Source of the DNA: an uncultured bacterium | GTDB lineage: Bacteria; Fermentibacterota; Fermentibacteria; Fermentibacterales; Fermentibacteraceae | DNA length: 64,000 nt | NCBI GenBank assembly: GCA_964603785.1 | Contig: CAZRWD010000001.1 | Location: forward strand, 24,352 to 88,351 | Direction: 5' to 3' | Shown: piece by piece, positions 22,908 through 39,682 of the stretch | Position numbering within the stretch: the stretch's first letter is position 1 | Layout: each line of letters starts with the position of its first letter | Program-made: the position numbers and the translations under genes | Notes under the pieces: model-generated | The model's input: the letters and a program-made list of their open reading frames with translations, nothing else | What the model was told of the DNA's origin: nothing | The model's database searches: none

Positions 22908-23056
22908 TGCCGCCTCCCGCGTGAATCTACCGTTTCCGGGACGATCCGCGCCACTCTGCCCCCCCGCGCCCTCCGGGCTTATGTTACCGCGTGATCCGAG
23001 TACTGCTCCTGCTCTGTTCGGTCAAGGCGCGCTCCGCCGGGGGCGCGGTCGCATCG

Positions 23057-24664
23057 ATGTGGGAGGGCAACCGGCTGAAGCTCTTCGCGGGCTTCGTGAC
23101 GATCTGCGTCATAGCACCCGCGATGTTCCTCCTGTTCAGATTCCTGTTCACGAGGCTCGTGACCATCGACGACAGCGAGTTCGGCATCGCGCTCTCCTCC
23201 AGGCTCCTCTCGTCGGCCTTCATGGCCTTCTCCGTGTTCCTCGCGATATCCTCGATGATCAGCGGGATCTCCACGCTCTACCGCTCCAGGGAGACCACGA
23301 TGCTCCTGAGCCTTCCCGTCGGGTCGGCCCCGGTGGCGGTGTTCAGGATCTTCGAGAGCTGGTTCTACGCGGGCTGGTCGACGCTGCTCCTGGGCCTTCC
23401 GGTCATCCTGGCCTTCGCCTCGGTCGTGGAGGGAGGGACCGGCACCGCGATCATGGGCATGCTCCTGCTCGTACCGCTCATCCTGGCCTCCACCGCATCG
23501 GGAACCGTTCTGACCGGTCTCTTCTCCAGGCTGGGCGGCATGGGCCTCCTCCGAAGGGGAGCGGCGGGGGTGGTGATCGGGGCGGCCCTGGCCCTCATCC
23601 TCTATTTCCAGGGCGCCAGGCCCGGGGCGGTCGTCATACCCGACTCGAGCGCGGGAAGCCTCGACGCGGTTCATCGCTTCGTGGCCGGCCTGCCTGCAAC
23701 GGGTCATTCCATATGGCCTCACGCGCTGTTCGGAGAGGTTGTCGGGCAGGTCGCGGGCGGGGGCAGCCGCGACTATGCCATGACGGCAGCGGCGATACTC
23801 ACGGCCGAGGCTCTCCTGGCGGCGATCGCCGCCCTTCTCCTGACCGCGCCGGGATTCAGGGCCAGGCACTCGCGCATCGCCTCCGATTCCGGCGGCTCGA
23901 GCAGCTCCCGCAGGTTCTTCAGGAGGGGCGGCCTACAGAGGGCGGTTCTCGAGAAGGACCTCCTCCTGTTCGTCAGGGATCCCGTCCAGCTGAGCCAGCT
24001 CGCACTGCTCGCAGGCCTGTTCCTGATGTACGCATCCAGCCTCTCGCGCTTCCCGGTGGACTTCTCGCAGAGGATGTGGCTGGGCGTGGCCGTGTTCATG
24101 AACGTCTCCTTCTCCGGATTCGTCATGGCCACCCTGCTGGTGAGGTTCGCCTTCCCCCTCGTCAGCCTCGAGGGCCCCGCCATCCCGTTCGTCCTGCAGA
24201 TGCCGGGGGCCAGGCGCAGGCTGCTCCGGTCGAAGTGGACATTCGCCATCGCCAGCGTCCTCCCGCTCATGCTTCTCGCAGGCCTCCTCTCCTCCGTCAG
24301 GCTCGGAGCATGGAACCTCTTCCTCATCGAGACGCTCGGGTCCATCGTGCTCATGTCCTTCGCCCTCTCCAGCATCAACACCGCCCTGGGAGCGGTCTTC
24401 CCGAGCTTCTCGGACAACAGCCCCGCGAGCATAGCAAGCGGTCAGGGAGGGATAATCGCGGCCTTCGCGTCCATGGGATACGTCCTCTCCATGGTCACCG
24501 CGCTCTCCTACGCAACGAGGGCCTACCTGGTGGAGGGCTTCCGGGAGCGGGCGATCTCGGGTCCCCTCGCCCTGACGGCCGTCATCACCATCCCCCTCAC
24601 CGTCCTGGTCTCCGTCCTCTCGATGAGGGGGGCGCTGCGCAGCTTCTCGAGGAGGGACTTCTGA
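23057..24664 (+). CDS. Putative ABC-2-type transporter permease
   Basis: More than 10 TM segments; LLLSLPV, EKDLLLFVRDP, VSLEG motifs typical of this permease family. Confidence 0.78.
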   Translation: MWEGNRLKLFAGFVTICVIAPAMFLLFRFLFTRLVTIDDSEFGIALSSRLLSSAFMAFSVFLAISSMISGISTLYRSRETTMLLSLPVGSAPVAVFRIFESWFYAGWSTLLLGLPVILAFASVVEGGTGTAIMGMLLLVPLILASTASGTVLTGLFSRLGGMGLLRRGAAGVVIGAALALILYFQGARPGAVVIPDSSAGSLDAVHRFVAGLPATGHSIWPHALFGEVVGQVAGGGSRDYAMTAAAILTAEALLAAIAALLLTAPGFRARHSRIASDSGGSSSSRRFFRRGGLQRAVLEKDLLLFVRDPVQLSQLALLAGLFLMYASSLSRFPVDFSQRMWLGVAVFMNVSFSGFVMATLLVRFAFPLVSLEGPAIPFVLQMPGARRRLLRSKWTFAIASVLPLMLLAGLLSSVRLGAWNLFLIETLGSIVLMSFALSSINTALGAVFPSFSDNSPASIASGQGGIIAAFASMGYVLSMVTALSYATRAYLVEGFRERAISGPLALTAVITIPLTVLVSVLSMRGALRSFSRRDF

Positions 24665-25047
24665 CCGTCGCCGCAGTCGACTACGGAAGGGTCAGGACCG
24701 GGATCGCCGTTCTCGTGGAGGGCGTCCCCCTGCCGCAGGATCCCGTCCTGGGCGGCGGCTGGAGGGCCATCCTTGAGAGGCTCGAGACCCTCAGGAGCGA
24801 ACGGGGCGTGACCAGGGTCGTGCTCGGTCTGCCTCTCACCGCCGGGGGCAGACCCACCGAGCTGTCGGACGAGGTCGGATCCCTCTCCGAGGCCATCGCC
24901 GCAGCCGGTTTCGAAGTGGTGACGATACCCGAGGCCGGCACGACCGCCGAGGCGTCCGGCCTGCCCGGCAGGAGGAGCCGGTCCTCGGGCAGAACCGACT
25001 CCCTTGCCGCCCTCATCATCCTGGAAAGGTACCTGGCATGTCATTGA
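24661..25047 (+). CDS. ruvX: Holliday junction resolvase-like / pre-16S rRNA nuclease RuvX (YqgF); probable CTG start
   Basis: AVDYGRVRTGIA, VVLGLP, DSLAALIILERYL; located upstream of mltG as usual; AGGAGG 5 nt before CTG 24661. Confidence 0.82.
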   Translation: MTVAAVDYGRVRTGIAVLVEGVPLPQDPVLGGGWRAILERLETLRSERGVTRVVLGLPLTAGGRPTELSDEVGSLSEAIAAAGFEVVTIPEAGTTAEASGLPGRRSRSSGRTDSLAALIILERYLACH

Positions 25048-26045
25048 AGAAGTCGATCATCCCGCTCGCCGTGCTGCTCGCTCTGTCGATCTGCGCCCTG
25101 CTCGTCCTGGACTGGGCCATGGGTGCTCCAGGCGGCGAGAGGGAGGTGGTGTTCAGGCTGGAGAGGGGCTGGGGCGCCCGGGAGACGGCCGAGGCGCTGG
25201 CCGACTCGGGTCTCGTCCGCTCCGTCCCCTACCTGCTGTGGAGGGCACGGGAGACCGGTCTCGCGTCGAGCTTCCAGGCCGGGAGCTACCTGCTCTCGAC
25301 CTCGATGCCCCCCGACACGATCCTGGCCGTCATCTCGTCGGGGAGGGTGATACCGGTGCCCACCAGCTGGGTGACCATCCCCGAGGGTCTCACCCTGGAG
25401 GAGACCCGCGACCTCCTCTGCTCCTCACTGGGCCTGGGGCAGGAGGAGCTCGACTCCCTCCTGCACGACGAGGGATTCGCTGCTTCGCTGGGGATTCCAG
25501 GCTTCGAGGGCTACCTGCACCCGGAGACGTACGAGTTCGCCGACACCCTCGGGGCCGCCGAGGTCGTCTCGCGCATGGTCGGGACCGGTCTGGAGAGATG
25601 GGAGCCCGGGTGGGACACGCTGGTGCGGGCATCCGGTCTCGAGCCGCACGAGGCGGTGATTCTGGCCTCCATCGTGGAGAGGGAGGCGAGGCTCCCGGAC
25701 GAGCGGCCCGTGATCGCCGGCGTCTTCCTGTCGAGGCTCAGGCGGGGCATGAGGCTGGAGAGCTGCGCAACCGTGCAGTACGCGCTGGGAGAGGTCCGCG
25801 AGACGCTCACCTACGCAGACCTTAGGATCGAGAGCCCCTGGAACACCTACCTCCACGAGGGCCTGCCTCCGGCGCCGATCTGCTCGCCCGGGCTCTCCGC
25901 CATCGAGGCCGTGGTATCCCCGGACACCTCGACCGGTTATCTTTACTTCGTGAGCAGGGACGACGGCACAGGGGGGCACCTGTTCGCATCGACCCTCGCG
26001 GGGCACAACGCCAACATCCGCCTGGCGAGGTCCGGAGGACATTGA
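25038..26045 (+). CDS. mltG: Endolytic transglycosylase MltG
   Basis: TIPEG, EGYLHPETY, LASIVEREA, RLESCATVQY, SPWNTY..GLPP.PI, YLYFV. Confidence 0.93.
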   Translation: MSLKKSIIPLAVLLALSICALLVLDWAMGAPGGEREVVFRLERGWGARETAEALADSGLVRSVPYLLWRARETGLASSFQAGSYLLSTSMPPDTILAVISSGRVIPVPTSWVTIPEGLTLEETRDLLCSSLGLGQEELDSLLHDEGFAASLGIPGFEGYLHPETYEFADTLGAAEVVSRMVGTGLERWEPGWDTLVRASGLEPHEAVILASIVEREARLPDERPVIAGVFLSRLRRGMRLESCATVQYALGEVRETLTYADLRIESPWNTYLHEGLPPAPICSPGLSAIEAVVSPDTSTGYLYFVSRDDGTGGHLFASTLAGHNANIRLARSGGH

Positions 26046-26069
26046 CGGGCGTTCCGCCCGGCGTATCTT
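26042..26069 (+). promoter_or_regulatory. Putative sigma70-type promoter of the SPFH operon
   Basis: TTGACG-N16-TATCTT. Confidence 0.5.
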
Positions 26070-26100
26070 GACTGCCGAACGCGCTTCCAGCGCTGAAAGG

Positions 26101-26637
26101 ATGGAGGAGATGGGCGACGAAGGCCGGAAGCTCGGATTCCTGGAGAAGGCCGTCAGGCTGATCCCGGGATACAAGGGCTACAAGAACAAGGAGGAGAGGC
26201 GCGACAACGACCAGCTCCTGCGCATGATGCTCGTCCAGAGGCTGGAGATCATCCGCGGGGGCCTGAACGAGGTCGTCAACAGCCTCCGCGGCCCCGCCGC
26301 GCTGATGGCCGCCGGCGAGGTCGACCGCCTGGTCAAGCGCCTCGAGAAGGTGACCGACGAGATCAGGTTCGCCGACAGGGGCTACAGGGGCTGGTTCGAC
26401 GTCCACAAGGTCCAGGAGGAGGAGCTCGACGCCCTTTACGAGTTCGACTCGGGCCTGGCCGAGGACATCGGTCTGCTCGAGGAGGCCATGCAGGCCCTCT
26501 CGGAGGCCGCCCGCGGCGGCGAGAGCATCACTGTGCACGTCGGCGGAATGCTGGACCAGCTCCTGAGGTTCAGCGAGAAGATGAACGCTCGCAACAATCA
26601 CATGATCGATCTCGAGCACAACAGGCCGATCGACTAG
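26101..26637 (+). CDS. Hypothetical all-helical protein preceding the SPFH gene
   Basis: Clean ORF with typical codon usage; IPGYKGYKNKEERRDND motif. Confidence 0.75.
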   Translation: MEEMGDEGRKLGFLEKAVRLIPGYKGYKNKEERRDNDQLLRMMLVQRLEIIRGGLNEVVNSLRGPAALMAAGEVDRLVKRLEKVTDEIRFADRGYRGWFDVHKVQEEELDALYEFDSGLAEDIGLLEEAMQALSEAARGGESITVHVGGMLDQLLRFSEKMNARNNHMIDLEHNRPID

Positions 26638-26656
26638 AAGCGGCAGGGGGTGGAGC

Positions 26657-27799
26657 ATGGTCAAGAGACTCGAGATAATCGAATGGCTCGACGACACGGG
26701 CAGGGAGATGGTCCACCGCGAGCCGCAGTCGGGCTCCGGTGAGTTCAGGATCGGCAGCCAGCTCGTAGTCCGGGAGAGCCAGGAGGCTGTATTCTTCCGC
26801 GACGGCAAGGCCCTCGGCGTGCTCGGTCCCGGCAGGCACACGCTCACCACGCAGAACATCCCGTTCCTCACCGAACTCGTGGACATGGCCTTCCAGGGCG
26901 AGGGCTCGCCCTTCAGGGCGGAGGTCTACTTCGTCAACAAGAAGACCTTCACCGAGATGAAGTGGGGGACCAAGGAGCCCATCATCTTCAGGGACAAGGA
27001 GCTCTCCATCGTGAGGCTCCGCGCGTTCGGCAGGTTCTCCGTCAAGGTCAACCAGAGCCAGCTCTTCGTCAACAAGCTCGTCGGCACGGAGGGCCGCTAC
27101 ACCACCGAGGCCATCGAGGGCTACCTCAAGGATGTCATCAACTCCCGCCTCGCCGACATCCTGGGGGAGAACGTCGAGAGCATCTTCGACCTCGCGAAGC
27201 TGTACGACGAGGTCGCCTCGCTCTCGAAGGCCCGCCTGTCCGACGACTTCGAGAAGTACGGCATCCAGCTGGTCGACTTCTACATCAACGCCATAACGCC
27301 CCCGGAGGAGGTCCAGAAGAGGATCGACGAGCGGTCCTCGATGGCGGCCCTGGGCAACATGGGCGAGTACATGCGCTACAAGACGGCGACCGCAGTCAGC
27401 GATGCGGCCCAGAACCAGGGCGGGGGAGGCGGTGCGGCCGCCACCGGCGTGGGTCTGGGGGCCGGTGTCGGCATGGGCGCGGCCATGGCGCAGATGATGG
27501 CCGGAACCATGGTGCCCGGACAGGCCGCGGGCGGAGCGGCTGCAGGCACGGCGGCCCCTGCAGGAGCCCTCGTCGTGTGCCCGTCCTGCGCGAAGCAGGT
27601 CCCGGCAGGCAGGTTCTGTCCCGAGTGCGGCAAGGCGATGGGCCAGGTCTGCCCCAAGTGCGGGGCCCCGGTTCCGCAGGGAGGGAAGTTCTGTCCCGGG
27701 TGCGGCGAGAAGCTCGGGGGCGGGTCGACCTGCTCGTGCGGCGCCGCGATCCCTCCCGGGAGCAAGTTCTGCCCCGAGTGCGGCAAGAAGGTGGAATAG
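26657..27799 (+). CDS. SPFH/Band-7 (YdjI-like) protein with C-terminal multiple zinc ribbons
   Basis: SQLVVRESQEAVFFRDG, LGPGRHTL, KWGT; Gly/Ala-rich linker; six CxxC-like units (CPSC, CPEC, CPKC, CPGC, CSCG, CPEC). Confidence 0.9.
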   Translation: MVKRLEIIEWLDDTGREMVHREPQSGSGEFRIGSQLVVRESQEAVFFRDGKALGVLGPGRHTLTTQNIPFLTELVDMAFQGEGSPFRAEVYFVNKKTFTEMKWGTKEPIIFRDKELSIVRLRAFGRFSVKVNQSQLFVNKLVGTEGRYTTEAIEGYLKDVINSRLADILGENVESIFDLAKLYDEVASLSKARLSDDFEKYGIQLVDFYINAITPPEEVQKRIDERSSMAALGNMGEYMRYKTATAVSDAAQNQGGGGGAAATGVGLGAGVGMGAAMAQMMAGTMVPGQAAGGAAAGTAAPAGALVVCPSCAKQVPAGRFCPECGKAMGQVCPKCGAPVPQGGKFCPGCGEKLGGGSTCSCGAAIPPGSKFCPECGKKVE

Positions 27800-27805
27800 G
27801 CCGAG

Positions 27806-29467
27806 TTGCTCTCCACGGTCCACGGTGTCCTGAGGGAGGCTGCGGCCGCCTTCGGTGGAAGGACCGCGATAAGGGACGATTCCAGGTCCCTGACCTTCTC
27901 CGACTGGTGGCGCGCCTCCCTCGATCTCGCCGCCCGCCTCGGGCAGGCCGGAGTCCGGCAGGGTGACTCCGTGGGGGTCCTCTGCGGCAAGACCGTGCTG
28001 CTGCCCGTCTCGTTCGCCGCCGTCTCCCTCGCCGGAGCGCGTTTCCTCGCGCTGTCCCCGGGCTGGCCCGAGACGACGGCGCGCAGGGTCCATCCTCCGT
28101 CCCCCCGCTCGTTCACCCTGGCCTTCGACGGCATCCCTCCGGCGCTCAGGAGGGACAACAGCCTGAGAGTCGATCCGGAAGCGGTACTGACCGGAAGCCG
28201 GGAACCCTCCGACCTCCCGGTGGTCGACCCCGGATCCGACTTCTACCTCAATGTGACATCCGCATCGACAGGGATCCCGAAGGTCGCCCCCGTATCGCAC
28301 GGGGCGCTGCTCGCCAACACGAGGGGAGTCTGCAGCGCCCTACGCCTGACCGGGGACGATGTCCACATGTCCCTGTTCTCGGCCGCCGGACACCCCCACG
28401 AGCTCTTCATGAGGGGGCTCCTCCTGGGCGGCTCCACCATACTCACCGAGGGCAGGTATCCCCGTTCGGCGATCAGGCTCATGGTCGAGACCGGGGTCAC
28501 GGCGCTCATGGGCCTCCCCCCCCAGCTGGAGGGCCTGGCCCGCTTCAGCGGCAGGGAGTCCGGAGACCTCTCCGGCCTGCGATTCGCCGAGGCCGGAGGG
28601 ATGTACTCGTCCAGGACCTTCATCGACAGGTTCAACGACCTCGCCGGGGTCGACGTGATCCAGGTCTGGGGAAGCACCGAGACCTCCGGCGTGGCGCTCT
28701 TCGGCGAGCGCAACTCCGACTGCCTGTCCGGAGTGGTCGAGGGCTACGAGGCCCTGATAGCCGACCACGGGACGGAGCAGGCCGGCGAAGGCTGCCCGGG
28801 TGAGCTCCTGCTGAGGGGCGAGGCCGTCGTGAGGGGCTATCTGGGAGACAGGACGGCCACCGACGAGTGCTTCCGGGACGGATGGTTCCGTACGGGGGAC
28901 ATGTTCGTCCGCAACGGGAGGGAGATGCGCTTCGCCGGGAGGCGCGGCGGTCTCGTCAAGTCGGCGGGGCTGAAGGTGTTCCCGCTCGAGGTCGAGCTCG
29001 CGATCCTCAGGCATCCCGACGTCCTCGACACTGCCGTGGCGGGGGAGGACCTGCCCGGCAGGGGGGAGACCACATTCGCACGGGTGGTGCTGCGCCCCGG
29101 GAGGGAGCTGGGCCAGGCGGCGCTGAGGGCATTCCTGCGGGGCGTGATCGACGAGTACAAGATTCCTCATACCATAGCGTTCGTGCCCGACCTCCCACGC
29201 ACGCCAGGGGGCAAGCTGGACAGGGCGGCCCTGGGCCGGCCGCCCGGCGCGCCCGACTGGCGGGGAGAGCTGCTCAGGACAGACGTCGAGATAGTCCGTC
29301 TCCTCTGCCACAGGGCCGAGACGGCCGCCCGGGCGGGTGCCGTGTACGATCCGGCGTGGATGGAGGAGCAGCTCGAGAACGCGACGGGCCACAATCCCGG
29401 CCCCCTGTCCGACGACTCGGTGAGGGAGATGTTCGCCTTCATCATCAACACTCTGTCCAGGGGGTAG
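27806..29467 (+). CDS. Adenylate-forming (acyl/aryl-CoA ligase-like) enzyme fused to a C-terminal chorismate mutase type II-like domain
   Basis: TSASTGIPK, WGSTET, WFRTGD, VFPLEVE, TPGGKLDR; tail DVEIVRLLCHR...YDP...NPGPLSDDSVREMF resembles AroQ. Confidence 0.8.
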   Translation: MLSTVHGVLREAAAAFGGRTAIRDDSRSLTFSDWWRASLDLAARLGQAGVRQGDSVGVLCGKTVLLPVSFAAVSLAGARFLALSPGWPETTARRVHPPSPRSFTLAFDGIPPALRRDNSLRVDPEAVLTGSREPSDLPVVDPGSDFYLNVTSASTGIPKVAPVSHGALLANTRGVCSALRLTGDDVHMSLFSAAGHPHELFMRGLLLGGSTILTEGRYPRSAIRLMVETGVTALMGLPPQLEGLARFSGRESGDLSGLRFAEAGGMYSSRTFIDRFNDLAGVDVIQVWGSTETSGVALFGERNSDCLSGVVEGYEALIADHGTEQAGEGCPGELLLRGEAVVRGYLGDRTATDECFRDGWFRTGDMFVRNGREMRFAGRRGGLVKSAGLKVFPLEVELAILRHPDVLDTAVAGEDLPGRGETTFARVVLRPGRELGQAALRAFLRGVIDEYKIPHTIAFVPDLPRTPGGKLDRAALGRPPGAPDWRGELLRTDVEIVRLLCHRAETAARAGAVYDPAWMEEQLENATGHNPGPLSDDSVREMFAFIINTLSRG

Positions 29468-29468
29468 G

Positions 29469-30260
29469 ATGGCGACGAGGATCGTCCGTGTCGGGAACGC
29501 CGTTTTCGGTTCCGGGACGCCCGCGGTCATCGCCGGCCCCTGTTCCGTCGAGAACCGGGAGATGATCCTGTCCTGCGCCGCAACCGCGGCGGAGTGCGGT
29601 GCGGCCATGCTGAGGGGCGGGGCGTTCAAGCCGCGTACCTCGCCCTACTCGTTCCTGGGGCTGGGGCTCGAGGGTCTCGAGCTCCTGGACGAGGCGCGCA
29701 GGCTGCACGGGCTGCCCGTGGTCACCGAGGTTCTGGCCTGCGACCAGATCGGCCCTGCGCTGGACCATGCGGACATGCTGCAGGTCGGAGCCCGGAACAT
29801 GCACAACTTCGCCCTCCTGACCGAGCTCGGGAGGGCCGGCTGCCCCGTCCTCCTGAAGCGCGGCTTCATGGCCACCGTGGAGGAGTGGCTGCTGGCGGCC
29901 GAGTACCTGATCAAGGAGGGCAACGAGAGCGTCGTCCTCTGCGAGAGGGGGATAAGGACCTTCGAGCCCTGGACCAGGAACACCCTGGACATCTCGTCCG
30001 TGCCGCTCGCCCGCGAGAAGGGCGGCCTGCCGGTGATCGTGGACCCCTGTCACGCCTCGGGCAGGAGCGACCTCGTCGCGCCGCTGTCCATGGCGGCTCT
30101 CGCCGCCGGGGCGGACGGCCTGATGATAGAGATCCACCCGGAGCCGGCGAGGGCGCTGTCGGATGGCGGCCAGTCGCTGGGCTTCGATGCCTTCAGGGCG
30201 CTCTCCGGCGAGATCCGGAGGTTTGCCGCCTTCGCTTCCGGAAGCAGAGAGGGAGGTTGA
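29469..30260 (+). CDS. aroF: 3-deoxy-7-phosphoheptulonate (DAHP) synthase, type I-beta, catalytic barrel only
   Basis: IAGPCSVE, GGAFKPRTSPYSF, QVGARNMHNF, LLKRG, LCERGIRTFE, VDPCH. Confidence 0.95.
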   Translation: MATRIVRVGNAVFGSGTPAVIAGPCSVENREMILSCAATAAECGAAMLRGGAFKPRTSPYSFLGLGLEGLELLDEARRLHGLPVVTEVLACDQIGPALDHADMLQVGARNMHNFALLTELGRAGCPVLLKRGFMATVEEWLLAAEYLIKEGNESVVLCERGIRTFEPWTRNTLDISSVPLAREKGGLPVIVDPCHASGRSDLVAPLSMAALAAGADGLMIEIHPEPARALSDGGQSLGFDAFRALSGEIRRFAAFASGSREGG

Positions 30261-30261
30261 C

Positions 30262-31299
30262 GTGCATCTCGGTATCCTGACCGGAGGGGGGGATGCCCCA
30301 GGTCTCAATGCTGTCACGAGAGCGGTCGTATATCGCGCCCTCGCCGGGGGGCACAGGGTGACGGGCTTCCTCAGGGGCTGGAAGGGCCTGCTCGAGAATC
30401 TCTCCAGGCCGCTCGGGATCGAGGAGGTCAGGGACATCCACAAGAAGGGCGGGACCGTCCTGCTCTCCTCGAGGACCAACCCCCTGAAGGCCGAGAACGG
30501 TCTGGAGAGGATCAGGGCCACGCTGGCGGCGAACTCCATCGACTGCCTCGTCGCCGTCGGCGGCGAGGACACCCTCGGGGTGGCATCGCGCCTCGCATCC
30601 GGGGGCATCCGCGTCCTGGGCGTCCCCAAGACGATCGACAACGATCTGAACTCCACCGACTACACCTTCGGGTTCGACACCGCCATCAACATCGTCACGG
30701 AGGCGCTGGACAGGCTGGAGACCACCGCCAGGAGCCACGAGCGCGTGATAGTCGTCGAGATAATGGGCAGGCACGCAGGCTGGATGGCTCTCCACGGGGG
30801 CATGGCGGGCGGCGCCCACGTCATACTGATCCCGGAGGAGCCCTTCGACACCGACGAGGTCTGCAGGGTCCTGACGGCCAGGTTCGAGGCGGGACACCGA
30901 TGGGCCCTCGTGGCCGTGGCCGAGGGGGCGATGGATCCGGAGCTCTCCCGGCAGGTGATGCACACCGCCGAGAAGGACGCCTTCGGACACGTGCAGCTCG
31001 GGACGGGCATTGGCATCGCCGAGGTGCTGGCCGGGGAGATCGAGCAGCGCAGCGGCCTCGAGACGAGGCATGTCATCCTGGGGCATCTCCAGCGCGGCGG
31101 CCCGCCCAGCGCCTTCGACAGGGTGCTGGGGACCAGGCTCGGTATCAAGGTCGTCGAGATGGCGGAGGAGGGGCTCAGCGGGATGATGGCCTCCCTGAAG
31201 GGGGGCGAGGTCGTCCCGGTGGACCTGGCCGAGGCCGTGGGAACGCTCAAGACGGTCCCTGCCGACAGGTACGCCGCGGCCAGGCTGTTCTTCGGCTGA
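30262..31299 (+). CDS. pfkA: 6-phosphofructokinase, group III, probably PPi-dependent
   Basis: TGGGDAPGLN, GGEDT, PKTIDND, EIMGRHAGW, LGHLQRGG. Confidence 0.92.
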   Translation: MHLGILTGGGDAPGLNAVTRAVVYRALAGGHRVTGFLRGWKGLLENLSRPLGIEEVRDIHKKGGTVLLSSRTNPLKAENGLERIRATLAANSIDCLVAVGGEDTLGVASRLASGGIRVLGVPKTIDNDLNSTDYTFGFDTAINIVTEALDRLETTARSHERVIVVEIMGRHAGWMALHGGMAGGAHVILIPEEPFDTDEVCRVLTARFEAGHRWALVAVAEGAMDPELSRQVMHTAEKDAFGHVQLGTGIGIAEVLAGEIEQRSGLETRHVILGHLQRGGPPSAFDRVLGTRLGIKVVEMAEEGLSGMMASLKGGEVVPVDLAEAVGTLKTVPADRYAAARLFFG

Positions 31300-31356
31300 G
31301 AAGCGCATGAGAGCGGATGTTCCAATCGATTCCAGGACACGCCAGGGGGGCTTGAA

Positions 31357-32358
31357 ATGAGAGTGGCCATCAACGGATTCGGCAGGATAGGAAGGCTGGT
31401 CTACCGGCGCGTGGTCGAGCAGGGCGGCATCGACATCGTCGCCGTGAACGACATAACCGATCCGGAGACGCTCGCGCACCTGCTCAGGTTCGACTCGGTG
31501 CACAAGCGCTTCCCGGGCGAGGTGGCCGTCACGGGCGATACCATCAGGGCCGGGGCGGACAGCTTCAGGGTCCTGAGCATCAAGGACCCCGCGGCGCTGC
31601 CCTGGAAGGATCTCGGGATAGACGTCGTCATCGAGGCCACCGGGCTCTTCGCCTCGAAGGAGAAGGCTTCGGCGCACCTGGCGGCGGGGGCGAGGAAGGT
31701 CCTGGTGAGCGCACCCGCCAAGGGCGCCGACCTGACCATAGTCATGGGGGTCAACCACCACCTCTACGATCCCTCCAGGCATGCCGTGATGTCGACCGCG
31801 AGCTGCACCACCAACTGCCTCGCACCCGTCGCCAAGGTCCTGAACGACAGCTTCGGGATCGTGCGAGGCATAATGACCACCATCCACGCCTACACCAACG
31901 ACCAGAGGGTCCTCGACCTCCCGCACAAGGACAAGCGGAGGGCGCGCACTGCGGCGATCAACCTCATCCCGACGACCACCGGCGCCGCGGTGGCCGTGGG
32001 CCTCGTGATCCCCGAGCTCGACGGCAGGCTCGACGGGTTCGCGATAAGGGTCCCGGTCGCCGACGGCTCGATAGTGGACCTCACCTGCGAGCTCGAGAGG
32101 GACGCGACTCCGGAGGCCGTCAACGAGGCCGTCAGGAACGCCGCCCAGGGCGAGCTCAGGGGCATACTCGAGTACAGCACCGACCCGCTGGTCTCCACGG
32201 ACATCATCGGCAACCCGGCCAGCTCCGTGTTCGACTCGGAGTACACCCGCATGGTCGGGAGCCGGATGCTCAAGGTGCTCTCCTGGTACGACAACGAGTT
32301 CGGCTACTCCTGCAGGATGGTCGACATGCTCAGGTACATCGGCGGGGTGGGGCTGTGA
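31357..32358 (+). CDS. gap: Type I glyceraldehyde-3-phosphate dehydrogenase
   Basis: INGFGRIGR, ASCTTNCL, SWYDNE. Confidence 0.98.
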   Translation: MRVAINGFGRIGRLVYRRVVEQGGIDIVAVNDITDPETLAHLLRFDSVHKRFPGEVAVTGDTIRAGADSFRVLSIKDPAALPWKDLGIDVVIEATGLFASKEKASAHLAAGARKVLVSAPAKGADLTIVMGVNHHLYDPSRHAVMSTASCTTNCLAPVAKVLNDSFGIVRGIMTTIHAYTNDQRVLDLPHKDKRRARTAAINLIPTTTGAAVAVGLVIPELDGRLDGFAIRVPVADGSIVDLTCELERDATPEAVNEAVRNAAQGELRGILEYSTDPLVSTDIIGNPASSVFDSEYTRMVGSRMLKVLSWYDNEFGYSCRMVDMLRYIGGVGL

Positions 32359-33557
32359 GGGTCCCCTCCGTACGAGATGCCGATCTGGCCGGGAGGAGGG
32401 TCTTCCTCAGGGCCGACCTGAACGTGCCCCTGGAGAACGGGACGGTGGCGGACGACACGAGGATCGCAGCCGTCCTGCCCACCCTGAGGATGATACTGGA
32501 CAAGGGGGCCGCGCTCGTCGTGGTGGCCAGCCATCTGGGCAGGCCCGACGGCGCGCCCGTTCCGGGGATGAGCCTCGCCCCGGTGGCCGTGAGGCTGTCG
32601 GAGCTCCTGGGCCGACGGATCGTCATGGCTCCGGACTGCGTCGGGGCGAGGGTCGAGACCATGGCCGCCGGTCTCGGTTCGGGCGGCCTGATGCTTCTCG
32701 AGAACCTCAGGTTCCATCCGGGGGAGGAGGCCGGCGACCCGGAGTTCGCGGCATCCCTGGCCAGGCTCGCCGACGTGTACGTGAACGACGCCTTCGGGAC
32801 CTGCCACCGGGCCCATGCCTCGATGACGGGCATCCCGGGGATCCTCGGCGGCGGATTCGCCGGACTGCTCGTCGAGAAGGAGATGGAGTTCTTCGGGAAG
32901 GTCACCTCGGATCCCGCGAGGCCCTACACTCTCCTGCTCGGGGGTGCGAAGGTCTCCGACAAGGTCCCCGTCATCGAGAACCTCATCGACAAGGTCGACA
33001 GCATACTCATAGGCGGGGCGATGGCCTTCACGTTCCTCCGCGCAGGCGGTCTGGAAGTCGGGCGCAGCCTCGTGGAGGGGGACCGGATAGGCGTTGCCGG
33101 GGAGATCGCCGCGAGGGCGGTCGAGGCCGGTGTCAGCCTGGTCCTTCCCCGGGACGTCGTCGTAGCCCCGTCGCCCGACCGCGGCGACCTCGCGCGGGTG
33201 GTCGCGGCCGATGCGATCCCCGCCGACATGGCCGGCCTGGACATCGGCCCTGCTTCGACAGGGGACTTCCGGGAGGTCATCCTGGCCAGCAGGACGGTCG
33301 TGTGGAACGGACCCATGGGCCTGTTCGAGAAGGAGCCCTTCGACAGGGCTACAAGGGCGCTGGCGTCCGCGCTGGTCGAGGCCACCGCCGCCGGCGCGCT
33401 GACCGTCGTGGGCGGGGGGGACTCCGCCAGGGCGGTCTCCGAGGCGGGGGCCGACGGCGGGGTGAGCTTCGTGTCCACGGGGGGTGGCGTCTCTCTGAAA
33501 CTCCTGCAGGGCAGGAAGCTAGTCGCCATCCAGGCTCTCGAGGTGCCGGGGCCGTGA
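32355..33557 (+). CDS. pgk: Phosphoglycerate kinase
   Basis: RADLNVP, SHLGRP, LENLRF, NDAFGT.HR, GGAKVSDK, WNGPMG, STGGG. Confidence 0.97.
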   Translation: MRVPSVRDADLAGRRVFLRADLNVPLENGTVADDTRIAAVLPTLRMILDKGAALVVVASHLGRPDGAPVPGMSLAPVAVRLSELLGRRIVMAPDCVGARVETMAAGLGSGGLMLLENLRFHPGEEAGDPEFAASLARLADVYVNDAFGTCHRAHASMTGIPGILGGGFAGLLVEKEMEFFGKVTSDPARPYTLLLGGAKVSDKVPVIENLIDKVDSILIGGAMAFTFLRAGGLEVGRSLVEGDRIGVAGEIAARAVEAGVSLVLPRDVVVAPSPDRGDLARVVAADAIPADMAGLDIGPASTGDFREVILASRTVVWNGPMGLFEKEPFDRATRALASALVEATAAGALTVVGGGDSARAVSEAGADGGVSFVSTGGGVSLKLLQGRKLVAIQALEVPGP

Positions 33558-34312
33558 ACAGGTTCGTCGGCGGCAACTGGAAGATGAACGGCTCCGGTTT
33601 CGAGGGCATCGCCTGGATGCAGTCGGTCAAGGAGGGCGCGGGCGGGCTTTCCGGTGTCGACCTGGCGCTCTTCCCCCCCTTCACCCTGCTCCCCGTCCTC
33701 GCGGAGGACGCCAGGGAGGCAGGGGTGATGCTCGGCGCCCAGGACGTCTACTTCGAGGCCCGGGGCGCCTTCACGGGCGAGATAAGCGTTTCGATGCTCC
33801 TCGAGGCCGGCTGCGAGTGGGTCATAGTGGGCCACAGCGAGCGCAGGCACGTGATCGGGGAGAGCGACGGGACCGTGAGGCGGAAGCTGTCCGCAGCCCT
33901 CGCCGGAGGGCTCTCGGTCGTCCTGTGCGTCGGGGAGAGGCTGGAGGAGCGGGACTCGGGCATCGAGGAGGACACCGTCCGGACGCAGCTCGCCTCCGCT
34001 CTCGGGGGACTGGACCCGATCGACCCCGGCAGGCTCGTCATAGCCTACGAGCCCGTCTGGGCCATAGGCACCGGGAGGAACGCAACCCCGGCCCAGGCCG
34101 TGCGGATGCACGACTTCATACGCTCGACGCTCCGGGGTCTCGTCGGTGACGGCGATGCCCCGGGATGCCGCGTCATCTACGGAGGGAGCGTGAACCCGGG
34201 CAACGCCGGCGACCTGCTGAGGGAGCCCTCCATCGAGGGAGCCCTGGTCGGCGGGGCCAGCCTGGACGCCGCGTCCTTCCTGTCCATCGCCGGAGCCTCC
34301 CGAGACGGCTGA
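33554..34312 (+). CDS. tpiA: Triosephosphate isomerase
   Basis: GNWKMN, VGHSERR, AYEPVWAIGTG, YGGSV, LVGGASL. Confidence 0.97.
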   Translation: MNRFVGGNWKMNGSGFEGIAWMQSVKEGAGGLSGVDLALFPPFTLLPVLAEDAREAGVMLGAQDVYFEARGAFTGEISVSMLLEAGCEWVIVGHSERRHVIGESDGTVRRKLSAALAGGLSVVLCVGERLEERDSGIEEDTVRTQLASALGGLDPIDPGRLVIAYEPVWAIGTGRNATPAQAVRMHDFIRSTLRGLVGDGDAPGCRVIYGGSVNPGNAGDLLREPSIEGALVGGASLDAASFLSIAGASRDG

Positions 34313-34400: not shown

Positions 34401-35135
34401 ATGGGCGCCAGGGGGCTCCTGTGGAGGGTCGGCCTGTTCGACCTTCCCTGGGGATGGCTGCTGGGCGGCGCGGCGGCGTCCATCCTCGTCATCCTCCCCC
34501 TCTGGCTCCTCCTCCCGAGTCCCTTCCCGAGGTTCCCCACCAGAAGGGCTGCACCGCTGGTCCTTGCATCCGCCTGCATTCTCACGCCCTTCGCAGCCGT
34601 CGCCCTGCGGGCCGGGCTCGTCGCCTCAGGACCGGATCCCGGCTGGTGGGTCGGAGCCCTGGTGCTCGTCCCGGCCGCCCTCGCGGAGGAGCTCCAGTTC
34701 AGGGGATTCCTCCTCGACCTCCTCTCGCGGAGGGGCGGCACGGTCTTCGCGGTGGCCGCGAGCTCCCTGGTCTTCGCGGCAGTGCATCTCGACAACCCGG
34801 GTTCCGAGCCGGTGGGCATCGTCAACATCGCCCTGTTCGGCGTGGTGCTCGGAGCGCTCAGGGTGAGGGGATCCGGGATCGTCGGCCTGACGGCTCTGCA
34901 CTGGCTCTGGAATCTCATGACCGGGATGGTGTTCGGATGGAAGGTGAGCGGGCTCGAGCTTCCCTCGCTCTTCCGCCCCGCCCACGACTCCTTCGGCGGG
35001 TTCGGCCCCGAGGCCTCGCCGATCCTGACGCTGGCCCTGGCGGCGGCATTCCTCTGCATCATCTTCGAGGCGCGGGGGTGCGGGTGCGCGAACGCCTGCC
35101 TCCCGGCCGGAAGGAGTAGCGGCCCGGATGAGTAG
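34401..35135 (+). CDS. CPBP (CAAX protease/Abi) family intramembrane metalloprotease
   Basis: EELQFRG, FAAVH, H..WN motifs; multiple TM segments; start uncertain. Confidence 0.85.
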   Translation: MGARGLLWRVGLFDLPWGWLLGGAAASILVILPLWLLLPSPFPRFPTRRAAPLVLASACILTPFAAVALRAGLVASGPDPGWWVGALVLVPAALAEELQFRGFLLDLLSRRGGTVFAVAASSLVFAAVHLDNPGSEPVGIVNIALFGVVLGALRVRGSGIVGLTALHWLWNLMTGMVFGWKVSGLELPSLFRPAHDSFGGFGPEASPILTLALAAAFLCIIFEARGCGCANACLPAGRSSGPDE

Positions 35136-36528
35136 GACCCTTCTCGTGAACCCGCCCTCGGCCATCGGGGTGTACGACAGGAGCCACATCAGGGTTGCCA
35201 TCACGTCGGCCCCCTTCATCACCCTCGCCAGCCTGGCGGGAGCCCTCCTCGAGGCCGGCGAGGAGGTCGAGATAGCCGACCTGATGATCGAGGGGATGCC
35301 GGAGGATGCCTACAGGCAGACCCTGCGCAGGTTCCGCCCGGACTTCGTCGGGCTGACCTTCACCACCCCCCTTTGGAGCGAGGCCGAGAGACTGGCCCGC
35401 ATAGCCTCCGAGGAGCTCCCCGGAGTGGTCACGATAGCCGGAGGGGTGCATGCCACCACCCTGCCGGGGGAGGTCCTGGAGAGCGGGGCGTTCCATCTGG
35501 TCGTGATGGGCGAGGGGGAGAGGACGCTCGTGGAGATCTGCTCCGGGGCTCCCGTCCCGGGCATCGACGGGGTGGCTTACCTGGACGGCGGGGCGCTGAC
35601 CCTGACCGCGCCGCGGGTGCTCATCGAGGACCTGGACCTGCTGCCCCTCCCGGCCTGGCAGCTGCACGACCTCCGGTACTACCGGGCCCCGCACATCGCC
35701 GCGAGGCGGAACCCCGTGGGCTACATGGAGACCAACAGGGGCTGCAACCACCACTGCCTCTACTGCAGCCAGACGATCTTCGGCCACCATGTGAGGTTCA
35801 AGTCCCCCGAAAGGGTCGTCGACGAGATGTTCCGGATGCTCGAGATCGGGTTCCGCGACATACACATCAAGGACAACAACTTCACCGCCGACATCTCCCG
35901 GGCCTCCGAAGTCTGCCGGCTGCTGGTCGAGAGGGGGTTCGACGCCCCCTGGGCCCTCCCCACGGGGGTCAACGTCCACGACGTGAGCGGGGAGTTCTTC
36001 GAGCTGGCGAGGCGCGCGGGCTGCTACCAGGTGGCCTTCGGCATCGAGAGCGGGGTGGACGAGATCCTCGGGCGCGTGAACAAGAGGCAGACCTCCGCGG
36101 AGATCCGCGAGGCGGTCCTGATGGCTCACAGAGCGGGCCTCGAGACCGTGGGCTTCTTCATGATGGGGCTGCCCGGCGACACCGAGGAGACCATGCGGGA
36201 GACCATCGACTTCGCATGCTCGCTGCCCCTCACCTACGCCAAGGCTTCCATGACGCTCCCCTTCCCGTCCTCGGCCCTCTTCCGGATGCTGGACCGGGAG
36301 GGCAGGATCCTCTCCAGGGACTGGGACAAGTACAACTTCCACTGCACGAGCGAGGTCTGGGAGCACGACAGCCTCTCGTGGGACACGATACGGCGCTACT
36401 ACGGACTGTTCCACAGGAGGTTCTACTTCAGGCCGTCCTACATCTGGAGACGGTTCCTGCGCGACATCAGGATGGGCCAGCTGCTCGACGACGCGAAGGC
36501 GGTCCTCTCGAACAGCTGGCTGGACTGA
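35128..36528 (+). CDS. B12-binding domain radical SAM protein (class B methyltransferase-like)
   Basis: N-terminal B12-binding region (DFVGLT, GGVHAT); RGCNHHCLYC; DNNF; GIESG; FMMGLPGDT. Confidence 0.9.
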   Translation: MSRTLLVNPPSAIGVYDRSHIRVAITSAPFITLASLAGALLEAGEEVEIADLMIEGMPEDAYRQTLRRFRPDFVGLTFTTPLWSEAERLARIASEELPGVVTIAGGVHATTLPGEVLESGAFHLVVMGEGERTLVEICSGAPVPGIDGVAYLDGGALTLTAPRVLIEDLDLLPLPAWQLHDLRYYRAPHIAARRNPVGYMETNRGCNHHCLYCSQTIFGHHVRFKSPERVVDEMFRMLEIGFRDIHIKDNNFTADISRASEVCRLLVERGFDAPWALPTGVNVHDVSGEFFELARRAGCYQVAFGIESGVDEILGRVNKRQTSAEIREAVLMAHRAGLETVGFFMMGLPGDTEETMRETIDFACSLPLTYAKASMTLPFPSSALFRMLDREGRILSRDWDKYNFHCTSEVWEHDSLSWDTIRRYYGLFHRRFYFRPSYIWRRFLRDIRMGQLLDDAKAVLSNSWLD

Positions 36529-36529
36529 C

Positions 36530-37834: not shown

Positions 37835-37926
37835 AGGCTTGACCTCCGCACGAGGATGGCGCAAGTATCCACCCCGAGGGGGCGTCCGCCCCTGACGGGC
37901 TTCTCCGCGACAAGGAGGGCGGTTTC

Positions 37927-39675: not shown

Positions 39676-39682
39676 AGGGGCA

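What the first reader, a model, noticed from the sequence alone, without database searches (positions are those of the whole stretch)
27806..30260. Chorismate-mutase-like domain on an acyl-CoA ligase, directly upstream of a DAHP synthase with no regulatory domain
Seen: the last ~70 aa of the ligase (from ~29255; WRGELLRTDVEIVRLLCHR...YDPAWMEE...NPGPLSDDSVREMF) follow the AroQ pattern. Against E. coli CM, Arg11, Arg28 and Asp48 equivalents are kept, the Lys39 segment is deleted and Arg51/Glu52 become Trp/Met. aroF starts 1 nt after the stop and has neither ACT nor CM domain. Established: Bacillus/Geobacillus/Listeria DAHP synthases use a fused AroQ domain as a prephenate/chorismate allosteric sensor. 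Inference: either the sensor acts in trans, coupling shikimate flux to an aryl-acid activating enzyme, or the ligase is regulated by or acts on a chorismate-derived acid. I do not know this architecture as characterised.
Basis: partly seen in the sequence, partly recalled or inferred. Interest (0 to 1): 0.75.

Follow-up and report, generated by a model that had tools for sequence, protein, structure and literature searches.

The report
Ligase carrying a dead chorismate-mutase domain
An acid-activating ligase ends in a well-conserved but catalytically degenerate chorismate-mutase-type domain, the kind that normally regulates the DAHP synthase encoded 1 nt downstream; the arrangement is real, found in four uncultured bacterial phyla, and uncharacterised.

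Summary
ORF 27806-29467 encodes a 553-aa ANL ligase. Its last ~70 residues are an AroQ (CM_2) domain: Pfam E=8e-8, and an AF2 model with TM 0.79 to T. thermophilus 2d8d. ORF 29469-30260 is a bare type Ibeta DAH7P synthase.

It is not a frameshift artefact. Fifty-six of 57 Fermentibacterota genomes keep a stop codon there, with all three stop codons in use.

The tail's closest relatives are the AroQ domains fused to the N-terminus of Ibeta DAH7PS (2d8d, 3nvt, 5gmu, 5j6f).

The tail is catalytically degenerate. The Lys39 segment is deleted, Arg51 is Trp, Glu52 is Val/Met, and the protein ends before Gln88. Arg11, Arg28 and Asp48 are kept. Even so, it is under purifying selection as strong as DAH7PS (dN/dS 0.11 versus 0.10; ligase body 0.27).

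The same ligase-AroQ plus DAH7PS pair occurs in Electryoneota, Zixibacteria and LCP-89, there leading envelope-polysaccharide-type operons.

My best reading, at moderate confidence, is a displaced DAH7PS regulatory domain that now works in trans as a non-catalytic binding and assembly module. I could not test that function. The 'aryl-acid ligase' and 'shikimate flux' ideas are weakened by two facts: the ligase family sits in exopolysaccharide loci, and Fermentibacteria are reported to be aromatic amino-acid auxotrophs.

The parts
27806..29467 (+). Whole ORF (553 aa, TTG start, TAG stop): ANL ligase with a C-terminal AroQ-like domain
   Evidence: The identical 553-aa product is on record from 6 contigs. 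About 100 homologues of about 553 aa cover 99-100% of it.
27806..29215 (+). Adenylate-forming ligase body (residues 1-470): AMP-binding 10-346 and AMP-binding_C 395-470
   Evidence: The core motifs are invariant in 28 homologues: YLNVTSASTGIPK 147-159, WGSTETSG 288-295, TGD 363-365, GRRGGLVK 378-385, and the A10 lysine K470. The AF2 body model has pLDDT mostly above 85.
29216..29254 (+). Short linker (residues 471-483) between the ligase C-terminal subdomain and the AroQ helix 1
   Evidence: Variable in the family alignment. pLDDT is below 50 at 480-483 in the full-length model.
29255..29464 (+). AroQ-like three-helix domain (residues 484-553). Helices are at about 485-510, 516-528 and 536-551. 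It is catalytically degenerate.
   Evidence: CM_2 E=8e-8. The profile hits 2d8d at 1.8e-10. The AF2 model has pLDDT 86.6, and Foldseek gives 2d8d TM 0.79, rmsd 1.0. Residue table. dN/dS 0.11.
29459..29468 (+). Junction: purine-rich AGGGGG (last two codons, Shine-Dalgarno-like), TAG stop, and a 1-nt spacer before the DAH7PS start. The G5 run at 29460-29464 is the only place where a 1-nt deletion would fuse the frames.
   Evidence: In 57 related loci the spacer is 1-3 nt in 51. Stops are TGA 27, TAG 17, TAA 13. An SD-like motif is present in 49.
29469..30260 (+). Type Ibeta DAH7P synthase, 263 aa, barrel only (no AroQ, ACT or FXD domain)
   Evidence: The closest solved structures are T. maritima 1rzm (7e-89), A. 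pernix and P. furiosus. KDO8P synthases score only 1e-21. The KPRTSPYSF motif is read directly from the translation.

Best explanation
The tail is a genuine AroQ-fold domain of the subtype that normally sits at the N-terminus of type Ibeta DAH7P synthase as its allosteric module.

In an ancestor of several FCB-group candidate phyla, the piece encoding it came to be translated as the C-terminus of the upstream adenylate-forming ligase instead of the N-terminus of the synthase. The route was either a shifted gene boundary or fusion of a small aroQ gene. The synthase was left as a bare barrel that is translationally coupled to the ligase gene.

In Fermentibacterota the domain has lost the chorismate-mutase catalytic set, so it is not an enzyme. 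It keeps the two carboxylate-binding arginines. Its pocket is remodelled but invariant (Trp518, Gln522, the GHNxGP loop).

I infer three things:
1. It dimerises, as all AroQ domains do, and so pairs two ligase chains.
2. It still binds a small acidic ligand.
3. It docks non-covalently on the DAH7PS tetramer and acts as a detachable regulatory or assembly subunit.

Shown: domain identity, origin subtype, degeneracy, conservation, and the linkage to DAH7PS. Inferred: dimerisation, ligand binding, and any contact with DAH7PS.
For: 1. By sequence and by fold, the closest relatives of the tail are the DAH7PS-linked AroQ domains. These are 2d8d, 3nvt, 5gmu and 5j6f at E=1.8e-10 to 6e-7, against about 0.5 for other chorismate mutases. 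The single-sequence hit is 2d8d. The NCBIfam best hits are TIGR01801 and PRK12595. The Foldseek top 11 are all such domains.

2. The domain ends 1 nt before the start of a DAH7PS that lacks any regulatory domain.

3. The pair is adjacent in all 57 Fermentibacterota loci that reach that far. It is also adjacent in Electryoneota, Zixibacteria and LCP-89, where the upstream neighbours differ.

4. The genes are tightly coupled, with a spacer of 1-3 nt in 51 of 57 loci and an SD-like motif inside the tail's last codons.

5. The tail evolves at the rate of the synthase, not of the ligase: dN/dS is 0.11 for the tail, 0.10 for DAH7PS and 0.27 for the ligase body, over 114 pairs.

6. Invariant polar residues sit at pocket-lining positions, while R/K486 and R503 (Arg11, Arg28) are kept.

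7. There is precedent for AroQ as a pure regulatory module of Ibeta DAH7PS, and for a non-covalent DAH7PS-CM complex in M. tuberculosis (PMC8408635).
Against: - There is no direct evidence of any contact between the two proteins.
- The mirror-tree test was uninformative. The tail-DAHPS partial correlation was 0.49, tail-ligase body 0.58, and controls reached 0.56.
- In Fermentibacterota the whole 11-gene block is syntenic, so adjacency there carries little weight on its own.
- The three ligase-fused clades have lost different pocket residues. That is odd if all bind the same effector.
- Fermentibacteria are reported unable to make aromatic amino acids, so the classical effector, prephenate, may not exist in these cells.
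- The closest DAH7PS relatives outside these clades are bare or FXD-fused, not AroQ-fused. The barrel therefore gives no independent support for an AroA(Q) ancestor.
- A 53-kDa ligase on helix 1 could sterically prevent the gating seen in Geobacillus.
Confidence: 0.42

Rival explanations
1. Ligase-centred module. After capture, the AroQ domain serves only the ligase, as a dimerisation handle or as an allosteric or substrate-recruiting site. It has no remaining relation to DAH7PS, and the adjacency is inherited operon structure.
For: AroQ domains are obligate dimers (established; PMC8408635). The linker to the mobile C-terminal subdomain of the ligase is only about 13 residues, so dimerisation would constrain domain alternation. 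The tail-ligase body residual correlation (0.58) is at least as high as tail-DAHPS (0.49). The whole block is syntenic in Fermentibacterota, so adjacency is cheap.
Against: The closest tail-less relatives of the ligase work without such a domain. The tail is four times more constrained than the ligase body in dN. Every ligase that carries the tail, in four phyla, also has DAH7PS next to it.
Confidence: 0.25
2. Same-pathway pair. The DAH7PS here does not feed aromatic amino-acid synthesis. It feeds a cell-envelope glycoconjugate or lipid pathway. The ligase acts on a DAH7P-derived or other pathway acid, and the pseudo-AroQ domain tethers the two enzymes as a scaffold or channel rather than as a feedback sensor.
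For: In clades A and B, DAH7PS overlaps by 4 nt, or lies 2 nt from, a Polysacc_synt flippase. That is followed by a B12-radical SAM, a radical SAM-SPASM, and PMT_2, LpxL-like or Wzy genes. The tail-less ligase relatives are in exopolysaccharide loci. The window itself has weak homologues of the B12-rSAM, PMT_2-like and flippase genes 5-12 kb downstream. Hyd24-12 is reported not to synthesise aromatic amino acids.
Against: The synthase is an ordinary Ibeta DAH7PS, about 60% identical to housekeeping enzymes of many phyla, with the DAH7PS-type KPRTS motif. No nucleotidyl-transferase or phosphatase for a ulosonic acid is seen beside it. The similarity of the window's downstream genes to the clade A/B cassette is only 23-28%. 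The auxotrophy claim rests on one annotation-based paper, and I did not verify it.
Confidence: 0.18
3. The tail is still an active chorismate mutase (or isochorismate-pyruvate lyase), making the protein a bifunctional ligase/CM. This is what the automatic UniRef name 'chorismate mutase' for a clade A member implies.
For: The fold and the Pfam family match. Clade A tails keep Arg28, Lys/Arg39, Arg51 and Gln88. PchB-type lyases appear among the fold matches.
Against: In the window protein and all 95 Fermentibacterota tails, the Lys39 segment is deleted, Arg51 is Trp, Glu52 is hydrophobic, and helix 3 stops before Gln88. Clade B lacks Arg11, Lys39, Asp48, Arg51 and Gln88.
Confidence: 0.05
4. Assembly or sequencing artefact. 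A spurious extra G in the G5 run at 29460-29464 splits what is really an AroQ-DAH7PS reading frame continuous with the ligase.
For: Deleting one G would fuse the frames. One related assembly (L047, Ca. Sabulitectum silens JCC-6) does read through.
Against: Fifty-six of 57 related genomes have a stop there, with three different stop codons, varied spacers and their own start codons. The same 553-aa product is recorded on 6 contigs. L047 carries another frameshift inside the ligase, so it is the likely error.
Confidence: 0.01

Closest known systems
N-terminal AroQ-linked type Ibeta DAH7PS: AroA(Q) of Bacillus subtilis, Listeria monocytogenes (3NVT) and Geobacillus sp. (5J6F), and T. thermophilus (2D8D, AroQ domain)
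   Same: Same AroQ subtype by sequence and by fold. Same order on the DNA, with AroQ immediately before the barrel. Same Ibeta barrel. In those enzymes the AroQ site serves as the allosteric effector site (PMC8408635).
   Different: Here a stop codon and a new start separate AroQ from the barrel, and AroQ is covalently attached to a different enzyme. The catalytic residues Lys39, Arg51, Glu52 and Gln88 are lost and helix 1 is 8 residues shorter.
Non-covalent DAH7PS-chorismate mutase complex of Mycobacterium tuberculosis (type II DAH7PS plus AroQ-delta CM)
   Same: Precedent for an AroQ protein and a DAH7PS on separate chains forming a regulatory hetero-complex (cited in PMC8408635). This is what the present pair would work like under the best explanation.
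   Different: A different DAH7PS type (II, not Ibeta). The mycobacterial CM is a free, active enzyme that the complex activates. No third enzyme is attached. No complex has been shown here.
C-terminal CM-linked DAH7PS of Prevotella nigrescens and Porphyromonas gingivalis (FCB group)
   Same: An FCB-group example of AroQ and Ibeta DAH7PS being interdependent (PMC8408635, PMC12202928).
   Different: There the domain order is the reverse, the link is covalent, the CM is active, and it is the cell's only CM.
PchB / PchD of pyochelin biosynthesis: an AroQ-fold isochorismate-pyruvate lyase and a salicylate-adenylating ANL enzyme in one operon (from my own knowledge)
   Same: An AroQ-fold protein and an ANL adenylating enzyme are functionally linked. 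PchB is among the fold matches (ranks 12-17).
   Different: They are separate proteins. PchB keeps the catalytic lysine and glutamine. No DAH7PS is involved. The present tail is closer to DAH7PS-linked AroQ than to PchB.
Tail-less ANL ligases of exopolysaccharide loci in Deltaproteobacteria and Nitrospirota (uncharacterised; P0161, P0165, P0184)
   Same: They are 45-47% identical to the clade B ligase body and 32-37% identical to the window ligase. They belong to the same ligase subfamily.
   Different: They have no AroQ tail. They are followed by an overlapping Zn-alcohol dehydrogenase gene instead of DAH7PS.

Membership tests
AroQ / CM_2 (PF01817) fold | Sequence match to the family profile at or above the curated threshold | tested here: met
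   The tail scanned alone scores 32.8 bits against a gathering score of 27 (E=8e-8). In the whole protein it scores 26.0 bits, just below threshold. The family profile hits four AroQ structures at E below 1e-6.
AroQ / CM_2 (PF01817) fold | Three-helix protomer with a long helix 1, as in solved AroQ structures | tested here: met
   The AF2 model has pLDDT 86.6 with helices at 12-37, 43-55 and 63-79 of the 80-aa tail. Foldseek gives 2d8d_A TM 0.79, rmsd 1.0 A over 74 columns.
AroQ / CM_2 (PF01817) fold | Intertwined homodimer | not testable with these tools
   Only single-chain prediction was available. Dimerisation is inferred from the extended protomer shape.
Chorismate mutase (enzyme, EC 5.4.99.5, AroQ class) | Active-site set Arg11', Arg28, Lys39, Asp48, Arg51, Glu52, Ser84, Gln88 (E. 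coli numbering) | tested here: not met
   Kept: R/K486, R503 and D/N515. The Lys39 segment is deleted in 95 of 95 tails. Position 51 is Trp in 94 of 95. Position 52 is Val, Leu or Met. The chain ends before position 88.
Chorismate mutase (enzyme, EC 5.4.99.5, AroQ class) | Chorismate-to-prephenate activity | not testable with these tools
   This needs an enzyme assay or complementation.
AroA(Q)-type regulated Ibeta DAH7PS | AroQ domain of the DAH7PS-linked subtype encoded directly upstream of the barrel | tested here: met
AroA(Q)-type regulated Ibeta DAH7PS | AroQ and barrel on one polypeptide | tested here: not met
   A stop codon lies between them in the window and in 56 of 57 related loci.
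AroA(Q)-type regulated Ibeta DAH7PS | Inhibition of DAH7PS by prephenate or chorismate through the AroQ site | not testable with these tools
   This needs kinetics with purified proteins.
ANL adenylate-forming ligase superfamily | AMP-binding and AMP-binding_C domains with core motifs A3, A5, A7, A8 and the A10 lysine | tested here: met
   The motifs are invariant in 28 homologues.
ANL adenylate-forming ligase superfamily | Assignment to a substrate-defined subfamily (fatty acyl, benzoate, o-succinylbenzoate and so on) | tested here: not met
   All NCBIfam subfamily and equivalog models score far below their cutoffs; the best is PRK06187 at 207 against 476. The PDB neighbours are mixed: an NRPS A domain, feruloyl-CoA ligase and benzoate-CoA ligases.
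Type Ibeta DAH7P synthase | Match to DAH7PS-specific models above cutoff and clear separation from KDO8P synthase | tested here: met
   PRK08673 scores 387 against 335 and TIGR01361 scores 355 against 268. The KDO8PS models score 107 against 242. In PDB, DAH7PS structures hit at 1e-75 to 1e-89 and KDO8PS at 1e-21.

The most novel reading that the evidence does not exclude
The ligase-pseudoAroQ protein and the bare DAH7PS form a physical two-enzyme unit in bacteria that do not make aromatic amino acids. In this reading DAH7P, or a derivative of it, is diverted to a cell-envelope glycoconjugate or lipid. The dead chorismate-mutase domain has been repurposed as the docking and ligand-binding adaptor that couples the first shikimate-pathway enzyme to an acid-activating ligase. 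That would be a new metabolic use of DAH7PS and a new role for an AroQ pseudoenzyme.
Probability: 0.12. Interest if true: 0.85.

Novelty: new variant of a known kind. Interest (0 to 1): 0.6.

Why it matters
AroQ domains on DAH7PS are a textbook case of allostery acquired by gene fusion. Here the same module has been handed to a neighbouring, unrelated enzyme. It has lost catalysis, yet it stays under strong selection in four candidate phyla.

If it still controls or docks to DAH7PS, this would be a natural 'split' allosteric system. It would also be an example of a gene-boundary shift creating a three-way functional link.

If it does not, it is a clean example of a pseudoenzyme domain recruited as an oligomerisation or ligand module of an ANL ligase.

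Either way there are practical consequences. Automatic names such as 'chorismate mutase' or 'long-chain acyl-CoA synthetase' for these proteins are probably misleading. The presence of DAH7PS should also not be read as evidence of aromatic amino-acid synthesis in these uncultured lineages.

Tried and rejected
1. Frameshift artefact. Rejected by 57 related loci and by 6 contigs carrying the identical product.

2. Active chorismate mutase. Rejected for Fermentibacterota from the residue table.

3. Direct hhalign of the tail profile against E. coli CM. The match is weak (E=0.06) and covers helix 1 only. It confirms the Arg11/Arg28 register and nothing more.

4. Mirror-tree partial correlations of tail, ligase body, DAH7PS and five neighbouring genes. 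Inconclusive.

5. Looking for an ancestral AroQ-DAH7PS among the closest DAH7PS relatives. None of the top 120 is CM-fused, so the direction of the event stays open: a boundary shift of a fused gene, or capture of a free aroQ.

6. Orthology of the window's downstream B12-rSAM, PMT_2-like and flippase genes with the clade A/B cassette. Identity is only 23-28%, which is not enough to claim it.

7. Literature searches for this architecture and for shikimate genes in Fermentibacteria. Nothing was found except the auxotrophy statement of Kirkegaard et al. 2016. The supplementary tables were not available.

8. The full-length AF2 model. The tail has low confidence (pLDDT 48-66) and no stable packing on the ligase, so it gives no information on the interface.

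9. Rfam and tRNA scans of the window. No hits.
Full report
**What is in the window.** ORF 27806-29467 (+, TTG start, TAG stop) encodes 553 aa. ORF 29469-30260 (+) encodes 263 aa. The two are separated by a single G and lie in different frames.

Pfam places AMP-binding at residues 10-346, AMP-binding_C at 395-470 and CM_2 at 486-548 of the first protein. CM_2 scores 26.0 bits in the whole protein, just under the gathering score of 27. The 75-aa tail scanned alone scores 32.8 bits, E=8e-8.

The second protein is DAHP_synth_1 over residues 11-242 and nothing else. It passes the NCBIfam Ibeta DAH7PS models and fails the KDO8PS models. Its closest solved relatives are the T. maritima, A. pernix and P. 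furiosus DAH7PS at 1e-80 to 1e-89. KDO8P synthases score about 1e-21.

The ligase carries all ANL core motifs, and these are invariant in 28 homologues. It fits no substrate-defined NCBIfam model. Its PDB neighbours are a mix of an NRPS A domain, a feruloyl-CoA ligase and benzoate-CoA ligases.

**The tail is an AroQ domain of the DAH7PS-linked kind.**
- The single tail sequence finds only 2d8d, the AroQ domain of the T. thermophilus DAH7PS/CM.
- A profile of 41 tails finds 2d8d (1.8e-10), Listeria 3nvt (7e-8), B. subtilis AroA 5gmu (1e-7) and Geobacillus 5j6f (6e-7).
- Free chorismate mutases such as the M. tuberculosis enzyme score about 0.5.
- The NCBIfam best hits are TIGR01801 and the bifunctional PRK12595.
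- An AF2 model of the tail, built from 39 sequences, has pLDDT 86.6 and three helices.
- Its best PDB matches are 2d8d (TM 0.79, rmsd 1.0 A), then the DAH7PS-linked AroQ domains, then PchB and the H. pylori CM.
- A search of 1.84 billion representative proteins with the tail profile returned two Fermentibacterota representatives at 1e-35. Next came a 598-aa ligase fusion at 2.9e-9, followed by short free AroQ proteins. The Fermentibacterota tail is therefore a tight, diverged family.

**The tail is catalytically degenerate but strongly conserved.** I aligned it to the reference AroQ domains and to E. coli CM.

| E. coli CM position | Window residue | Across 95 distinct Fermentibacterota tails |
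|---|---|---|
| Arg11 | R486 | Arg 89, Lys 6 |
| Arg28 | R503 | invariant |
| Lys39 segment | 8-residue deletion | deleted in all 95 |
| Asp48 | D515 | Asp 75, Asn 19, Glu 1 |
| Arg51 | W518 | Trp in 94 |
| Glu52 | M519 | Val, Leu or Met |
| Gln88 | absent | chain ends one residue before |

L490, R491, D493, Q522, G528, H529, N530, G532 and D536 are also invariant.

Over 114 genome pairs with unsaturated dS, dN/dS is 0.11 for the tail, 0.10 for DAH7PS and 0.27 for the ligase body. This is not a decaying remnant.

**It is not an artefact.**
- A scan of one genome per species returned 62 Fermentibacterota loci.
- In every locus that extends far enough, DAH7PS follows the ligase-tail ORF.
- In 57 junctions the spacer is 1-3 nt in 51. 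The stop is TGA 27, TAG 17 or TAA 13. The DAH7PS start is ATG 33, TTG 17 or GTG 7. An SD-like purine run lies in the tail's last codons in 49.
- Only L047 (Ca. Sabulitectum silens JCC-6) reads through as ligase-AroQ-DAH7PS. It lacks one base at the junction relative to its relatives and has another frameshift inside the ligase, so it is most likely an assembly error.
- The exact 553-aa product of the window is recorded on six contigs.

**The architecture is wider than Fermentibacterota.** The scan also found the fusion in Ca. Tariuqbacter arcticus (phylum Electryoneota) and in a Black Sea MAG (loci L063 and L065).

A homologue search from L065 found about 40 further clusters with AMP-binding + AMP-binding_C + CM_2:
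- Clade B (about 587 aa): Electryoneota-like.
- Clade A (about 590 aa): includes Zixibacteria and LCP-89. One member is auto-named 'chorismate mutase' in UniRef.

All five loci I inspected have a bare 267-272-aa DAH7PS downstream. One of them has a 221-aa membrane ORF inserted in between. Another has a 566-nt gap.

The three clades have lost different pocket residues:
- Clade A keeps Arg28, Lys/Arg39, Arg51 and Gln88.
- Clade B keeps only Arg28 and Glu52.
- Clade C (Fermentibacterota) keeps Arg11, Arg28 and Asp48.

**The context changes the picture.** In Fermentibacterota the whole block is syntenic in every genome: ABC_tran_2, RuvX, MltG, unknown, SPFH/zinc-ribbon, ligase-AroQ, DAH7PS, PFK, GAPDH, PGK, TPI. 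Adjacency there says little by itself.

In clades A and B the upstream genes differ. DAH7PS is translationally coupled to a Polysacc_synt flippase, followed by a B12-radical SAM, a radical SAM-SPASM, and PMT_2, LpxL-like or Wzy genes.

The closest tail-less relatives of the ligase are 45-47% identical to the clade B body. They lie in exopolysaccharide loci of Deltaproteobacteria and Nitrospirota and overlap a Zn-alcohol dehydrogenase gene.

The window has weak homologues (23-28% identity) of the B12-rSAM, PMT_2-like and flippase genes at 35-43 kb.

Kirkegaard et al. 2016 (PMC5030696) predicted that Hyd24-12 genomes make only Gly, Ser, Cys, Thr, Asn, Asp, Glu and Gln. I could not verify this independently.

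The DAH7PS itself is ordinary. The clade A enzyme is about 60% identical to bare or FXD-fused Ibeta enzymes of many phyla. None of the top 120 relatives is CM-fused.

**Interpretation.** Four things are firmly shown:
1. This is an AroQ domain of the DAH7PS-associated subtype.
2. It is attached to an ANL ligase rather than to the adjacent bare DAH7PS.
3. It is non-catalytic in this lineage.
4. It is strongly constrained and linked to DAH7PS in four phyla.

From this I infer that the domain derives from the regulatory module of the neighbouring synthase, or from a free aroQ that preceded it. I further infer that it persists as a binding and assembly module: it dimerises the ligase, binds an acidic ligand through the two retained arginines and a remodelled Trp/Gln pocket, and most likely still contacts DAH7PS in trans.

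There are precedents. The N-terminal AroQ of Geobacillus, Listeria and Bacillus DAH7PS acts as an allosteric gate, and M. tuberculosis has a non-covalent DAH7PS-CM complex (PMC8408635).

The main rivals are two. In one, the domain now serves only the ligase. In the other, the two enzymes belong to one envelope-related pathway and the domain is a tether rather than a sensor. A mirror-tree test could not separate these, and no multimer modelling was available.

**Novelty.** I found no paper describing this architecture. Databases carry only automatic names. I rate it a new variant of a known kind: AroQ modules associated with DAH7PS.

Noticed in passing
L047:7560-7720 (Ca. Sabulitectum silens JCC-6, MJAN01000003.1): The ligase-AroQ frame runs straight into DAH7PS (…LGRVSMPIRHV…), giving an apparent triple fusion. 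Relatives have an extra base and a stop there, and the same assembly has a second frameshift in the ligase N-terminus. It is probably an indel error, but it shows how easily a one-base change fuses all three parts.
   Followed up: partly
window 22991-34312 and L001-L062: An 11-gene block is in identical order in every Fermentibacterota genome sampled, despite 45-65% protein identity. The order is ABC_tran_2, RuvX, MltG, an unknown 189-aa protein, SPFH/double zinc ribbon, ligase-AroQ, DAH7PS, PFK, GAPDH, PGK, TPI.
   Followed up: yes
window 35128-42789: Downstream of the glycolytic genes lie a B12-binding radical SAM (35128-36528), an FGE-sulfatase/PEGA protein (36530-37834), a second ANL ligase (37927-39675), and a 531-aa membrane protein. 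The membrane protein has no Pfam hit but is 28% identical to a PMT_2 protein of L074 (39683-41278). A Polysacc_synt flippase follows (about 41104-42789). The same families directly follow DAH7PS in Zixibacteria, LCP-89 and Electryoneota, so this may be the same cassette interrupted by pfk-gap-pgk-tpi. Identities are only 23-28%.
   Followed up: partly
L070, L071, L072: Tail-less relatives of the ligase in Deltaproteobacteria and Nitrospirota are always followed by a 4-nt-overlapping Zn-alcohol dehydrogenase gene. They lie among Poly_export, Wzz/GNVR, CpsB and Polysacc_synt genes. This is an uncharacterised ligase+ADH pair of exopolysaccharide loci.
   Followed up: partly
L063:3467-4132; L074:9765-10329: In Ca. 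Tariuqbacter arcticus a 221-aa membrane ORF is inserted between ligase-AroQ and DAH7PS. In L074 there is a 566-nt stretch with no called gene at the same place.
   Followed up: no
window 26068-26637: A 189-aa protein with no Pfam match is conserved in all Fermentibacterota loci, between MltG and the SPFH/zinc-ribbon gene.
   Followed up: no
PDB 2d8d (alignments): The T. thermophilus DAH7PS-linked AroQ domain has Gln at the position of catalytic Lys39, so it too may be mainly regulatory. It is the closest solved relative of the tail.
   Followed up: no
L065:48-1043; L063:108-1313; L074:6552-7754: In Electryoneota-type loci a DUF362 protein with Cys motifs lies directly upstream of the ligase-AroQ gene. 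In L074, UbiA, metallo-beta-lactamase-fold and amine-oxidase-like genes lie further upstream.
   Followed up: no
window 1-64000: There are no tRNA genes and no Rfam family at gathering score in the whole 64 kb. G+C is 67%, and many long spurious antisense ORFs result, for example 26570-28300(-) and 28340-29629(-) across the finding.
   Followed up: yes
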